DNA of 64,000 bases, from the NCBI GenBank assembly GCA_965218095.1, contig OZ244587.1:2016001-2080000 (forward strand), written 5' to 3'. A model generated the notes under the pieces. The model saw nothing but the letters and a program-made list of their open reading frames with translations, had not been told where the DNA came from and ran no database searches. The DNA comes from Candidatus Poribacteria bacterium. GTDB lineage: Bacteria > Poribacteria > WGA-4E > PCPOR2b. The position numbers were made by a program, and so were the translations under genes. Positions 11,387 through 13,435 of the stretch are shown one piece after another (the first letter of the stretch is position 1; each line of letters begins with the position of its first letter).

Positions 11387-11759
11387 ACCCATTTTCCGTC
11401 AATCCTACAACTTTTTCAGTTATTAGAAGGGGAAATCAGGTATATCCCGCCTCCAACCATTCCTGTCAGATTGCCAATCCTGACCGAGTTAAGTGAAAAA
11501 CTCGTATCAATCCCCCTAATCGGGGCAGATGTTCCGCTCCCCACAAGAATATTTCCAGATTCAGGTCACCGTGGATGACAAATGAGGTGCTTGATCTCAA
11601 CAACGTTCGAGCGTATCCCGCGCGTGATTTCGATACGGGTTTCGATACACTTCGCTGCTCAACCCAAGTCGCTACTCAATTCAGTGCTCGTTCCGGTCAG
11701 TCATGAACGTTTACACGAAGGTTTTACTTTACATGCAACGAATGAAAAGAGAGAAACCC

Positions 11760-12254
11760 ATGAAACGATTGAACAAAGAAGTTGTCTTTTCCATTGTCTG
11801 GACCATTTTGTGGTTCCTTCACCCTCTATTACTCGTTCAGGGACTCGCTGCTGAACCTGAGCGGATTACCGTAGTAAACCTCAAACGCTTATTAGATGCC
11901 GGAGATGACGTGGTTCTGGTTGATGTTCGCAGTCAGCGCCAATACAATGCCGGACACCTCCCCGGAGCCATCTCGATGCCGTTTCCAGGTCAGATTCAAG
12001 CCAGACATCAAGAACTTCCCCCGGAGGGGCTGATTATTTTATACTGAAGCTGACAGGCGGAAGCCACAAGTGCCCGTGCGGCACGCATGTTAATGGAGGA
12101 ATTTGGTTTTCCCCCGGAGCGACTGAAAATGCTCAGAGGAGGTTTTCCCGCATGGAAGCAGGCGGGCCATCCGATTGAAAGTGCGGCGGCAGTTCACCCG
12201 AAAGGAAAACGCTTCACCCTGTGGGGTCGGATCAAATCTGGAAGTCGAATGTGA
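11760..12254 (+). CDS. Secreted rhodanese-like (seleno)protein with two in-frame UGA codons (Y-U-S-U)
   Basis: Signal peptide; LVDVRS..YNAGHLPGAIS; IILY-TGA(12045)-AGC-TGA(12051)-QAEATSARAARML..LRGGFPAWKQAGHPIE continues in frame to TGA 12252-12254. Confidence 0.85.
12056..12090 (+). promoter_or_regulatory. Candidate bacterial SECIS
   Basis: Hairpin GTGCC-CGTGC-GGCAC (12070-12084) starting 16 nt after the second UGA; small GGC-GGAA-GCC hairpin at 12056-12065. Confidence 0.55.
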
Positions 12255-12326
12255 CGGAATTTTGGGGATTCCACGATTCATTTCATTTTTGATAGCCGCA
12301 AAAGTGAGAAACTAGAACACCTAATT

Positions 12327-13435
12327 GAGGGGTGTGCATAGTAGTTCATTGGAAAACAGCCGCCATATGAGAGATATTGCGAGCAGGTAACTTCCATATG
12401 GCATTGGCAATCATAGCCACTTGCACTGATAACACCCCGATAGCTAAACAACAGCGTACATTGAAAAACCCCTTGACCGGTAACTGCTTCTGTTGAGGAG
12501 TGGTGCCTATCACTTTAGCAATCAAGTCAAACAACGGTTCAACCGAACTGCGACGTTTGCTTAAACAGAGACGCTGCTTGGGTTGGTTGATAAATCGATG
12601 ATACGCCTTGGCAAACCGTCCCTTTGTCCATCTAAGTGCCGGGGTAATCAAAGCGACTTGTGCCTTCGCCCAACAACGGATACGGTCTGCTTGGGTATAG
12701 GCATCATCGGCAGTGAGTGTCTGCGGTGAAAGTTGTGTCAGAATCTCAGACGCTTTAGCATCTATCGCCCAACTTTCGGAGACCGACGCACGGTGCACAG
12801 TTATCAGTGTTGGGAACGCACCTTGTGTGCAGATAATGTGAAGTCCGTAGCCATAGACCCAGCCATGATAACCACTCTTGCTCCACGTGGCATCGGTGTC
12901 GAGGTTGCGTAGATGTTTAGGTACTTTTCCTGCTTTGCGGTCAGTTTGATGCCAGACGGGTCCTCGTGCCTTAAATAAACTTTTGTCGGCTACCAGATGA
13001 GCCAAGTTGAATTGTTGGGACAAGTCAGTGGCATACTGACCGATAAACAATACAAATGCCTCTATCACTTCATATAATGCCTTATAGCGACGTGCAATCG
13101 TGGTTCGATGAGGGGGCTGTTGCCACCCCAGCATTTGTAACACTTCTGGGTGATTGATTAGCCACCGCCATTGCGTTTTGAAGCCATAGATGCCGTGAAA
13201 CTGCATCAACATGAAGAAAATGATAAACGAGGTGGTTGAATATGTCAATGGTTTTGCGTGTGTGACACCTGGTTTGTCAATACGGTGTTGCATAAACTGC
13301 TCAAAGAGTTGCATAATAAGAGTGACATAATCAGCCAACATTGGTCTTTGTACCATATTGGGGCTCCTTTTGCTATGATAACAATAGGAAACCCTTTTGG
13401 CTTGATTATGTCAACTATATTTATGCACACCCCTC
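12327..13435 (-). mobile_element. DDE insertion sequence (IS5/IS982-like) with apparently intact transposase at 12346-13356
   Basis: TIR GAGGGGTGTGCATA/TATGCACACCCCTC; 8-bp TSD ACCTAATT; ADKS..DATW..GYGLH..ADDAY..RSSVEPLF. Confidence 0.88.

What the first reader, a model, noticed from the sequence alone, without database searches (positions are those of the whole stretch)
11760..12254. Secreted rhodanese with a double-UGA active site (Y-U-S-U): candidate di-selenocysteine enzyme
Seen: the ORF track stops at IILY, but the DNA reads TAC TGA AGC TGA CAG GCG GAA GCC ACA AGT GCC CGT GCG GCA. The frame then continues 66 codons through the rest of a rhodanese fold (SARAARML..LRGGFPAWKQAGHPIE). Known: this rhodanese subtype has Y-C-x-C-x-x-E-x-x-S at the catalytic loop, and bacteria decode UGA as Sec using a hairpin just 3' of the codon. 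Both UGAs fall exactly on the two Cys positions. A GTGCC/GGCAC hairpin starts 22 and 16 nt after them, and there is a small GGC-GGAA-GCC hairpin at 12056. Inference: a 164-aa exported U-x-U selenoprotein. Single-Sec rhodaneses are known; two Sec two residues apart is unusual, and it raises the question of how one or two overlapping SECIS elements serve both codons. The window has many pseudogenes, but two independent nonsense hits on just these two residues is unlikely.
Basis: partly seen in the sequence, partly recalled or inferred. Interest (0 to 1): 0.92.

Follow-up and report, generated by a model that had tools for sequence, protein, structure and literature searches.

The report
Double-selenocysteine exported rhodanese, known family
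This gene really does encode a small exported rhodanese enzyme with two selenocysteines two residues apart, but it is a divergent branch of a selenoprotein family already described, and the double-selenocysteine form has been noted in print before.

Summary
Window 11760-12254 (+) reads ...ILY-TGA-AGC-TGA-CAG... in an otherwise open 164-codon rhodanese frame. It is not a pseudogene. Among 60 related genomes plus the window's own, 43 orthologous places were found. Of these, 36 keep TGA at both codons (Y-U-S-U) and 7 read Y-C-x-U. The downstream frame is under purifying selection (dN/dS 0.13-0.30). A 5-bp hairpin, GUGYC-N5-GRCAC, lies 16 nt after the second UGA in 43 of 43. The genome encodes selA, selB, selD and tRNA-Sec, and uses TGA as its commonest stop codon.

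The nearest described family is the C-x-U rhodanese selenoprotein (NCBIfam NF041203, motif LYCAU). This protein scores 69.9 bits against a cut-off of 115, so it belongs to a sister clade, apparently in Candidatus Poribacteria. A DNA-pattern scan of other phyla gave 68 C-x-U and 11 U-x-U genes with the same hairpin at the same offset. A tree needs at least 5-8 Cys/Sec switches at the first site.

The simplest reading is that one SECIS, originally serving the second UGA, also serves the newer first one. A U-x-U rhodanese was already reported in 2007 (PMC1976440). Verdict: real, but a new member of a known kind.

The parts
11760..12254 (+). Coding sequence of the rhodanese selenoprotein: 164 codons plus a TGA stop, with two in-frame UGA codons read as Sec
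   Evidence: Orthologues at 43 places. dN/dS 0.13-0.30 downstream of the UGAs.
11760..11852 (+). Signal-peptide-like N-terminus (MKRLNKE, then a hydrophobic stretch, then GLAA|EPERI). Export is inferred, not shown.
   Evidence: The sequence itself. The same layout appears in all 43 orthologues and in most of the wider family, some with lipobox-like Cys. AF2 models residues 4-28 as a lone helix.
11877..12164 (+). Rhodanese domain (residues 40-135)
   Evidence: Pfam PF00581, E 1.1e-15. AF2 model pLDDT 92-97 over residues 31-140. Foldseek top hits are single-domain rhodaneses such as 3nhv and 2kl3.
12045..12047 (+). UGA 1 (residue 96). It is Sec in 36 of 43 orthologues and Cys (TGT/TGC) in 7 of 43.
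12048..12050 (+). AGC Ser codon between the two UGAs, with its synonymous site frozen
   Evidence: AGC in 42 of 42 Ser cases. It is one of only 4 single-codon columns among 47 degenerate conserved columns.
12051..12053 (+). UGA 2 (residue 98). It is TGA in 43 of 43 orthologues and is the 'U' of the LYCAU family motif.
12056..12065 (+). Mini-hairpin GGC-GGAA-GCC. Its role is uncertain.
   Evidence: The outer pair covaries at two third-codon positions (GC 22, CG 7, GU 2, UG 2, AU 1, UA 1, other 4 of 39 distinct rows). The helix is broken in the C-x-U orthologues and absent from U-x-U genes of other phyla.
12070..12084 (+). SECIS hairpin: 5-bp stem GUGCC/GGCAC with apical loop CGUGC
   Evidence: Paired in 43 of 43. 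Pair 41-49 is CG 28, UG 13, UA 2. The codons AGT, GCG and GCA inside it never vary synonymously. The loop has G at position 2 followed by U or G, and starts 21 nt after UGA 2 and 27 nt after UGA 1. This fits the published bSECIS consensus of 16-37 nt (PMC13188914, passage).
12180..12251 (+). C-terminal tail beyond the rhodanese fold, conserved as AV.PKGKRfTLWGrIKS. Function unknown.
   Evidence: Trp155 is invariant, and K148, K150 and K159 are nearly invariant in 43 sequences. The model confidence here is low (pLDDT 51-57). The tail is absent from NF041203 members, which end ...YPVEEK.
12252..12254 (+). TGA used as the true stop codon of the same gene
   Evidence: 29 of 43 orthologues also end in TGA. 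TGA closes 1048 of 2613 long frames in the genome.

Best explanation
The gene encodes an exported, single-domain rhodanese-type selenoprotein whose active-site loop carries two selenocysteines (Y-U-S-U-Q-A-E-A-T-S). Both UGA codons are recoded by SelB and Sec-tRNA(Sec). Recoding is directed by one SECIS hairpin (12070-12084), whose apical loop lies 21 nt after the second UGA and 27 nt after the first.

The second Sec is the ancestral and invariant one of the wider C-x-U ('LYCAU') rhodanese selenoprotein family. The first position is a Cys that has repeatedly been swapped for Sec and is fixed as Sec in most lineages of this order, apparently Candidatus Poribacteria.

By inference, the C/U-x-U pair works as a redox or chalcogen-transfer couple outside the cytoplasm. 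One residue would take up a sulfane sulfur or selenium, or attack a substrate. The other would resolve the intermediate as a selenenyl-sulfide or diselenide.

Shown here: conservation of both UGAs, the SECIS hairpin, the Sec machinery, purifying selection, and family relationships. Inferred: actual Sec insertion at both codons, export, and the chemistry.
For: 1. Both TGAs sit at the same two codons in 36 of 43 orthologous places, and the other 7 read TGY-NNN-TGA. The orthologues were found by protein similarity in 42 of 61 genomes searched, counting the window's own (f1 24 of 28 besides the window's own, f3 11 of 11, f4 6 of 7, f2 0 of 14). Identity to the window protein is 41-71%.
2. dN/dS downstream of the UGAs is 0.30, 0.28, 0.135 and 0.18 in four groups, against 0.185, 0.14, 0.19 and 0.195 upstream.
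3. The hairpin is paired in 43 of 43, with CG, UG and UA at one pair.
4. Only 4 of 47 degenerate conserved codon columns use a single codon. All four lie between UGA 1 and the end of the hairpin.
5. The Sec machinery is present: selA 605.7 bits, selB 353.7 bits, tRNA-Sec 76.6 bits (94 nt after selB), and selD 371.1 bits. selD itself has one in-frame TGA at the TCGUAAK site.
6. selD's own SECIS has its loop 19 nt after the UGA with a G-U in the loop, comparable to the 21 nt seen here.
7. TGA is a normal stop in this genome (1048 of 2613 long frames) and in this gene itself (29 of 43 orthologues).
8. Family context: NF041203 is the best NCBIfam match. Among 79 rhodanese genes recovered from other phyla by a DNA pattern, 68 are C-x-U and 11 are U-x-U, with the hairpin at the same offset. 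Two of the U-x-U genes (L100, L142) pass the NF041203 cut-off at 168 and 162 bits.
9. The tree of 116 rows needs at least 8 switches at site 1, and at least 5 are forced by well-supported branches.
10. Two assemblies from two other studies show no difference at either TGA. A 331-nt contig identical to 11669-11999 is present in a sponge metatranscriptome library.
Against: 1. There is no protein-level evidence. Nothing here shows selenium in the product or read-through of either codon.
2. The 78-nt region does not fold better than shuffled sequence (z = +0.51; 141 of 200 shuffles fold at least as well). The case for the hairpin therefore rests on conservation, in a stretch that also encodes conserved residues (T-S-A-R-A-A).
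3. No Rfam family matched (0 hits at E <= 10).
4. One near-identical contig (run X2, depth 20) carries a 1-nt insertion behind 12131. If real, it would shift the frame 26 codons after UGA 2 in that strain.
5. The mini-hairpin covariation in the U-x-U orthologues leaves room for a second RNA element.
6. Which Sec is the nucleophile is unresolved. HMMER aligns site 2 with the catalytic Cys of 1yt8 and 6mxv. The AF2 model ends the strand at Y95, so site 1 is the first loop residue. One homologue, P0090, keeps Cys only at site 1 (C-S-R).
7. The pattern scan required the hairpin, so it cannot show how universal the hairpin is.
Confidence: 0.85

Rival explanations
1. Only the second UGA is decoded as Sec. 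The first UGA is read some other way (near-cognate Trp or Cys read-through) or mostly terminates, so the full-length product is rare or carries a single Sec.
For: The SECIS spacing matches the second UGA best: its loop is 21 nt away, against 19 nt in the genome's own selD. Site 2 is TGA in 43 of 43 and throughout the family, whereas site 1 switches between Cys and TGA.
Against: TGA at site 1 is kept in 36 of 36 members of the U-x-U clades despite synonymous divergence of 0.5-0.9 upstream. A leaky stop would be expected to revert often to TGY. A loop distance of 27 nt lies inside the published 16-37 nt range (PMC13188914, passage). U-x-U arose repeatedly in other phyla.
Confidence: 0.08
2. Two RNA elements act together. 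In this lineage the mini-hairpin GGC-GGAA-GCC (12056-12065), or an alternative pairing that includes the first UGA, helps decode UGA 1, while the main hairpin serves UGA 2.
For: Pair 24-33 of the mini-hairpin covaries at two third-codon positions (GC 22, CG 7, GU 2, UG 2, AU 1, UA 1, other 4). The Glu codon in its loop is GAA in 43 of 43, although other Glu columns prefer GAG. The helix is intact in the U-x-U orthologues and broken in the C-x-U ones. RNAalifold proposes instead pairs 12-31 (CG 38, UA 4, CA 1), 13-30, 17-26 and 18-25.
Against: The helix has only 3 bp. It starts 8 nt after UGA 1, so it would lie largely inside the ribosome when UGA 1 is in the A site (established knowledge of the mRNA channel length; inference). 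The 8 U-x-U genes from Desulfobacterota and Chloroflexota lack it. The covariation follows family boundaries, so few independent events support it.
Confidence: 0.1
3. The gene is a pseudogene with two nonsense mutations, or the TGAs are sequencing errors.
For: The window holds transposase genes (DDE_Tnp_1 at 12346-13356). One related contig carries a frameshift at 12131.
Against: The same two TGAs occur in 36 genomes across four genera of family f1 and two of family f3. The downstream frame is intact and under purifying selection. Independent assemblies agree at both TGAs.
Confidence: 0.01
4. The organism reads TGA as a sense codon (code 4 or 25), so no Sec is involved.
For: Public protein sets hold read-through calls of two homologues with Trp at both sites (P0040 YWSW and P0059 YWGW).
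Against: TGA closes 1048 of 2613 frames of 300 or more codons. selA and selB have no internal stops. 29 of 43 orthologues end in TGA at the conserved C-terminus. P0040 runs on through the true stop.
Confidence: 0.01

Closest known systems
NCBIfam NF041203 'rhodanese_LYCAU', rhodanese-related (seleno)protein. [quoted passage not shown]
   Same: It is a single rhodanese domain behind a signal peptide. Sec sits at the second position of a C/U-x-U motif followed by P-x-E-x-[TS]-S-A. The same AGUGYC-N5-GRCAC hairpin lies 16 nt after that UGA.
   Different: The window protein scores 69.9 bits against a cut-off of 115, and three other orthologues score 74-81. The first position is Sec rather than Cys. 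A conserved 24-residue basic, Trp-containing C-terminal tail is added.
U-x-U form of 'rhodanese-related sulfurtransferase' reported from the Olavius algarvensis symbiont metagenome (Zhang and Gladyshev 2007, PMC1976440; passages read, figure not available)
   Same: A rhodanese selenoprotein in which 'a second Sec evolved ... resulting in a UxU motif'. U-x-U members of NF041203 from Desulfobacterota were also found here (L100, L142).
   Different: That report concerns deltaproteobacterial symbionts, and I could not see its alignment (Figure 3A). It is therefore inferred, not verified, that the two Sec positions are the same as here. Here the form is fixed across 36 genomes of another phylum.
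[quoted passage not shown]
   Same: These are bacterial proteins predicted to carry two closely spaced Sec residues.
   Different: The architecture and spacing differ. TsoB matches this protein only weakly (29.5 bits against a cut-off of 805).
Canonical thiosulfate sulfurtransferases with solved structures (GlpE 1gmx, PspE 2jtq, P. aeruginosa 1yt8) and the single-domain rhodanese BH2092 (3nhv)
   Same: The fold is the same: Foldseek gives 3nhv at E 2.2e-8 with TM 0.60-0.72, and the profile matches 1yt8 at 7.8e-30.
   Different: They have a single catalytic Cys in a C-x-x-G-x-R-[ST] loop. This protein has no Arg or Gly in the loop. It has a second chalcogen residue two positions away and an acidic Glu in the loop.

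Membership tests
Bacterial selenoprotein (SelB/SECIS-dependent UGA recoding) | In-frame UGA conserved among orthologues and aligned with Cys in homologues | tested here: met
   Both UGAs are kept in 36 of 43 orthologues, and site 2 in 43 of 43. Site 1 is Cys in 7 of 43. Both sites are Cys in the distant homologues P0029-P0031.
Bacterial selenoprotein (SelB/SECIS-dependent UGA recoding) | A stem-loop just 3' of the UGA that fits the bSECIS consensus: small apical loop with G in position 1 or 2, and the loop 16-37 nt from the UGA | tested here: met
   A 5-bp stem is paired in 43 of 43. The loop is N-G-[U/G]-G-C and lies 21 and 27 nt from the two UGAs. The consensus is taken from PMC13188914 (passage). 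The fold energy alone is not exceptional, and there is no Rfam match.
Bacterial selenoprotein (SelB/SECIS-dependent UGA recoding) | selA, selB, selC (tRNA-Sec) and selD present in the same genome | tested here: met
   All four score over their curated cut-offs.
Bacterial selenoprotein (SelB/SECIS-dependent UGA recoding) | The frame downstream of the UGA is translated (purifying selection) | tested here: met
   dN/dS is 0.135-0.30 downstream in four groups.
Bacterial selenoprotein (SelB/SECIS-dependent UGA recoding) | Selenium found in the polypeptide (75Se labelling or mass spectrometry) | not testable with these tools
   No proteomic data were available. RNA-library contigs show only that the 5' part of the gene is present in a metatranscriptome.
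NCBIfam NF041203 rhodanese_LYCAU | Whole-protein score at or above the curated cut-off of 115 bits | tested here: not met
   The window protein scores 69.9 bits (56.3 bits in the six-frame search). Orthologues L048, L060 and L066 score 74.4, 80.7 and 74.1. The Desulfobacterota genes L085, L103, L100 and L142 score 162-175.
NCBIfam NF041203 rhodanese_LYCAU | L-Y-C-A-U motif, that is Cys followed two residues later by Sec (read from the family's name and the reviews' 'CxU') | tested here: inconclusive
   Sec at the 'U' position is kept. The 'C' is Sec here, but it is also Sec in L100 and L142, which pass the cut-off.
Pfam PF00581 Rhodanese-like domain | Score above the gathering threshold (22.2 bits) and a rhodanese fold | tested here: met
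   58.3 bits. The AF2 model has pLDDT 85.3, and Foldseek hits to solved rhodaneses have probability 1.00.
Thiosulfate:cyanide sulfurtransferase (functional rhodanese) | A catalytic Cys in a six-residue cationic loop (C-R-x-G-x-[RT]), and persulfide formation | tested here: inconclusive
   A chalcogen residue is present at or next to the catalytic position. The loop is U-S-U-Q-A-E with no Arg or Lys and one Glu. Sequence alignment and the structure model disagree on which Sec is the catalytic equivalent. Activity cannot be tested here.

The most novel reading that the evidence does not exclude
The clade found here, apparently in Candidatus Poribacteria, may be a distinct extracytoplasmic enzyme with a fixed U-x-U centre that forms a diselenide. 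Its mRNA may carry a lineage-specific bipartite signal, the GNRA-like mini-hairpin plus the family SECIS, tuned to load two Sec-tRNAs within three codons. That would make it a natural model for tandem SelB-dependent Sec insertion from one locus. The recurrent switch from Cys to Sec at site 1 (at least 5-8 times) would then mark selection for a lower-potential Se-Se couple in sulfur- or selenium-rich habitats.
Probability: 0.15. Interest if true: 0.7.

Novelty: new member of a known kind. Interest (0 to 1): 0.42.

Why it matters
- **Annotation.** Gene callers cut this gene at the first UGA. 27 of the 35 database homologues found are fragments covering only 55-58% of the query, most of them 91-95 residues long, and two others are read through as Trp. 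The selenoproteome of this sponge-associated group is therefore under-annotated.
- **Biology.** The data give a clean comparative series (C-x-U, U-x-U, and one C-x-R) in which a second UGA was added repeatedly, 6 nt upstream of an existing one, without any change in the SECIS. That bears directly on how much spacing SelB/SECIS tolerates, and on why Cys is exchanged for Sec.
- **Limits.** The family, its SECIS-type recoding and the U-x-U variant are already described, so this extends known biology rather than opening a new kind.

Tried and rejected
- An Rfam scan of 11700-12400 gave no match at E <= 10.
- A single-sequence fold of 12033-12110 was no more stable than shuffles, so thermodynamics alone does not support the SECIS.
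- The search for related loci on genome contigs used the back-translated peptide pattern [LF]YCSCxAE[AN][TS], that is Cys codons. It found 11 pattern matches, none a relative. It therefore could not find UGA forms, and I replaced it with a DNA pattern.
- A genome-wide regex for TGA followed by a GUGYC...GRCAC hairpin with open frames on both sides gave mostly one repeated element (about 15 copies of the same 29-mer) and a pair at 3484186/3484200. The translations of that pair do not look like proteins, so I rejected it as a selenoprotein candidate.
- Synteny gave no conserved operon partner across families. Within genus g4, a GH88 gene lies upstream in 18 loci and a pyridine-nucleotide-disulfide oxidoreductase downstream in 11. 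This is suggestive only.
- I read MccSep, the multihaem selenoenzyme of PMC13510729, in passages. It is a different family.
- The helix 34-36/56-58 that I proposed as a lower SECIS stem is paired in only 73.5% of cells and shows no covariation. I dropped it.
- Parts of the stretch had no cover in the RNA-library contigs. That is not evidence of anything.
- Supplementary files of papers are closed. Figure 3A of PMC1976440 and the data tables of the reviews could settle whether the 2007 U-x-U positions are identical to these.
Full report
**1. The observation**

The window reads TAC TGA AGC TGA CAG GCG GAA GCC ACA AGT GCC CGT GCG GCA at 12042-12083. With TGA read as Sec, the frame 11760-12254 gives a 164-residue protein ending at a third TGA. 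Pfam's Rhodanese domain matches residues 40-135, across both TGAs (E 1.1e-15).

**2. Not a pseudogene, not an error, not another genetic code**

The window lies in a 6.35-Mb single-contig genome. I searched the read-through protein in that genome and 60 relatives. This found orthologues (E 1e-33 or better) at 43 places in 42 genomes:
- Family f1: 24 of 28 genomes, besides the window's own.
- Family f3: 11 of 11.
- Family f4: 6 of 7.
- Family f2: 0 of 14, with paralogue-level matches only.

I cut out and translated all 43.
- 36 read Y-U-S-U-[PKQHR]-A-E-A-T-S, with TGA at the same two codons.
- 7, all of family f4, read Y-C-[SG]-U.
- The three-TGA cases include the terminal stop.
- 29 of the 43 genes also end in TGA, so the same codon is read two ways within one gene.

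Genome-wide, TGA closes 1048 of 2613 stop-to-stop frames of 300 or more codons. This excludes a TGA-sense code.

Nei-Gojobori dN/dS downstream of the UGAs is 0.30 (genus g4, 165 pairs), 0.28 (g11, 45 pairs), 0.135 (g5, 6 pairs) and 0.18 (f4, 13 pairs). Upstream values are similar, at 0.14-0.195. The 3' part is therefore translated.

Contigs from two other studies span 11600-12334 with 2-3 substitutions, none at either TGA. A metatranscriptome library from a sponge holds a 331-nt contig identical to 11669-11999. This is weak evidence of transcription, because DNA can be present in such libraries.

One caveat: the contig of run X2 (depth 20) has a C inserted behind 12131. If real, it would shift the frame 26 codons after the second UGA in that strain.

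**3. Sec machinery**

The genome has the full set:

| Gene | Score (bits) | Cut-off (bits) |
|---|---|---|
| selA | 605.7 | 267.9 |
| selB | 353.7 | 242.25 |
| tRNA-Sec | 76.6 | 47 |
| selD | 371.1 | 125 |

- tRNA-Sec starts 94 nt after the end of selB.
- selD itself carries one in-frame TGA, at ...TCG-U-AAK.
- selD's SECIS is a 7-bp hairpin whose AGUU loop begins 19 nt after the UGA.

**4. The RNA signal**

I aligned 90 nt around the motif from all 43 genes. RNAalifold finds the 5-bp hairpin in every sequence. Four pairs are invariant, and one is CG in 28, UG in 13 and UA in 2.

The region also encodes conserved residues, so I looked at synonymous sites. Of 47 alignment columns with a four- or six-fold degenerate residue conserved in 30 or more sequences, only four use a single codon:
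- Ser AGC between the two UGAs (42 of 42).
- Ser AGT (43 of 43).
- Ala GCG (43 of 43).
- Ala GCA (41 of 41).

The last three lie in the stem. All other such columns have third-position entropy of 0.27 or more. Glu GAA (43 of 43) and Ala GCC (28 of 28) are also frozen.

The loop is N-G-[U/G]-G-C. It starts 21 nt after UGA 2 and 27 nt after UGA 1. This fits the published consensus of a G in the first two loop positions, often followed by G or U, with the loop 16-37 nt from the UGA (PMC13188914; passage seen).

Against this: the fold energy of the single sequence is unremarkable (z +0.51), and Rfam has no match.

The mini-hairpin shows real-looking covariation at its outer pair, which joins two third-codon positions. 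The counts are GC 22, CG 7, GU 2, UG 2, AU 1, UA 1 and other 4, out of 39 distinct rows. However, it has only 3 bp and is broken in the C-x-U orthologues. It is also missing from U-x-U genes of other phyla. I keep it as a minority hypothesis.

**5. What family it belongs to**

The best NCBIfam match is NF041203, 'rhodanese_LYCAU, rhodanese-related (seleno)protein'. The score is 69.9 bits, below the 115-bit cut-off.

Public protein sets contain the orthologues almost only as fragments. 27 of the 35 hits cover only 55-58% of the query, and most of these are 91-95 residues long. Two homologues were called under a TGA=Trp code (YWSW and YWGW).

More distant homologues have Cys at both positions (LYCDCPAE, LYCGCPLE, LYCACPLE). 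One has C-S-R (P0090). A scan of 185,579 species genomes for the all-Cys version of the motif found no relative.

In the 80 loci returned:
- 79 of 81 matches are rhodanese genes.
- 68 are C-x-U. They are mostly 'LYCAUPNE.TSARVAQ', from Desulfobacterota, Nitrospirota, Acidobacteriota, Chloroflexota and others.
- 11 are U-x-U. Three are from records named Candidatus Poribacteria, and 8 are from Desulfobacterota and Chloroflexota.

NF041203 scores for ten of these genes:

| Group | Loci | Score (bits) |
|---|---|---|
| Desulfobacterota, C-x-U | L085, L103 | 175, 168 |
| Desulfobacterota, U-x-U | L100, L142 | 168, 162 |
| Chloroflexota | L109, L113, L122 | 80-97 |
| Orthologues of the window gene | L048, L060, L066 | 74-81 |

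The window gene therefore belongs to a sister clade of NF041203. The U-x-U state also occurs inside the family proper.

A quick maximum-likelihood tree was built from 116 rows. Two rows were dropped as too short, and four as duplicates of genomes already in the set. The tree groups the 43 orthologues together (SH-aLRT 88), next to Chloroflexota forms. It needs at least 8 changes of state at site 1, of which at least 5 are forced by starred branches. Label shuffles need about 35. The root is arbitrary, so the direction of each change is not shown. Because site 2 is Sec everywhere and site 1 is mostly Cys outside this clade, the likeliest history is repeated Cys-to-Sec replacement at site 1.

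**6. How it most likely works**

*Recoding.* The hairpin is identical in place and sequence in C-x-U and U-x-U genes. The simplest model is one SECIS, evolved for UGA 2, that also serves UGA 1 six nucleotides further away. The ribosome would then need two SelB-Sec-tRNA deliveries within three codons. This is inferred, not shown.

*Location.* All 43 orthologues, and most of the wider family, begin with a signal-peptide-like or lipoprotein-like segment. Four Desulfobacterota genes fuse the domain to a cytochrome with eight CxxCH motifs. Such cytochromes mature outside the cytoplasm (established knowledge), so an extracytoplasmic location is likely.

*Chemistry.* The loop U-S-U-Q-A-E has no Arg or Lys and contains one Glu, unlike thiosulfate sulfurtransferases. 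A C/U-x-U pair suggests a redox or chalcogen-relay couple that forms a selenenyl-sulfide or diselenide. Two observations fit a role in sulfur or selenium redox chemistry but do not prove one:
- The cytochrome fusions described above.
- A pyridine-nucleotide-disulfide oxidoreductase gene directly downstream in 11 of 19 genus-g4 loci, and within 3 kb in 4 of 73 loci of other phyla.

*Which Sec is the nucleophile* is open. HMMER puts site 2 on the catalytic Cys of 1yt8 and 6mxv. The AF2 model (pLDDT 85.3) ends the strand at Y95 and starts the helix at 102, which makes site 1 the first residue of a six-residue loop. P0090 keeps only site 1.

**7. What is known, and novelty**

[quoted passage not shown] I could not see their figure.

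Two reviews list the C-x-U form with one Sec: PMC9312934 (passages) and PMC13188914 (passages). They list other double-Sec proteins (UxxU, UxxxxU TsoB, CU x 2). They do not list a U-x-U rhodanese as a separate entry in the passages I saw.

A search for 'Poribacteria' with 'selenocysteine' gave 3 papers, which I saw only as a listing. None is about this protein by its title.

New here:
- The clade and its fixation of U-x-U.
- The C-terminal tail.
- The count of independent switches at site 1.
- The comparative argument for a single shared SECIS.

The kind of system is known.

**8. Verdict**

This is a real, conserved double-selenocysteine rhodanese. Confidence that both UGAs encode Sec is about 0.85. 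Interest is moderate, at 0.42.

Noticed in passing
L086:26-1570 (+), L146:924-2594 (-), L150:975-2597 (-), L107:6543-7913 (-): Four Desulfobacterota genes fuse this rhodanese domain to a cytochrome with eight CxxCH motifs. Three of the four are U-x-U and one is C-x-U. Pfam matches are Multi-haem_cyto plus Rhodanese. Such a fusion would put one or two Sec residues next to a multihaem electron chain. L107 is cut at its 5' end by my ORF rule.
   Followed up: partly
window 12326-13356 (-) and beyond: A DDE transposase gene (PF01609) sits between the rhodanese gene and the aquaporin and DUF6785/DUF6784 membrane genes. In 7 genus-g4 loci the DUF6785 gene follows the rhodanese gene directly. Contig depth jumps from about 20 to 400-1500 at 12326, as expected for a multi-copy insertion sequence.
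   Followed up: partly
G000:C1, about 15 sites (for example 545936, 1230076, 2542825): An identical 29-nt string (TGA...GGCAC) recurs with the same flanking open frames of 53 and 42 codons on either side. It is presumably one repeated mobile element and is unrelated to Sec.
   Followed up: no
G000:C1:5447425-5448348 (-): The genome's selD is itself a selenoprotein (in-frame TGA at ...TCG-U-AAK). It has a 7-bp SECIS hairpin with loop AGUU, 19 nt after the UGA.
   Followed up: partly
window 12129-12131: In one near-identical public contig (run X2, depth 20) there is an A>G change at 12129 (M124V, also seen in run X4) plus a C inserted behind 12131. The insertion would frameshift the last 40 codons. 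It could be a strain-specific pseudogene or an assembly error.
   Followed up: no
L032, L036, L038-L041, L043-L047 (genus g4), directly 3' of the rhodanese gene: A class-I pyridine-nucleotide-disulfide oxidoreductase (Pyr_redox_2 plus Pyr_redox_dim, with a CxxxxC motif) starts within about 15 nt of the rhodanese stop in 11 of 19 genus-g4 loci. A homologue lies within 3 kb in 4 loci of other phyla. It is a possible reductase partner, although it has no signal peptide.
   Followed up: partly
P0040, P0059 (public protein sets): Two homologues are stored as read-through products with Trp at both Sec positions (YWSW, YWGW). P0040 also runs through the true TGA stop. These are gene calls made under a TGA=Trp code, so they are mis-annotations.
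   Followed up: yes
L076, L094, L136, L148 and others (proteins of about 236-320 aa): Some C-x-U rhodanese genes of Acidobacteriota and others carry a long hydrophobic N-terminal extension, which looks like a fused membrane domain. I did not scan them against Pfam.
   Followed up: no
window 12180-12251: The C-terminal tail AV.PKGKRfTLWGrIKS is conserved in all 43 orthologues (Trp invariant) but is absent from NF041203 members and from P0090. It is basic and is modelled with low confidence. Its function is unknown.
   Followed up: partly
L106:4813-6075 (+) and 12 other loci: In 13 of 73 loci from other phyla, a polytopic membrane protein of about 420 aa with no Pfam match lies about 300 nt upstream on the same strand as the C-x-U rhodanese gene.
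   Followed up: partly
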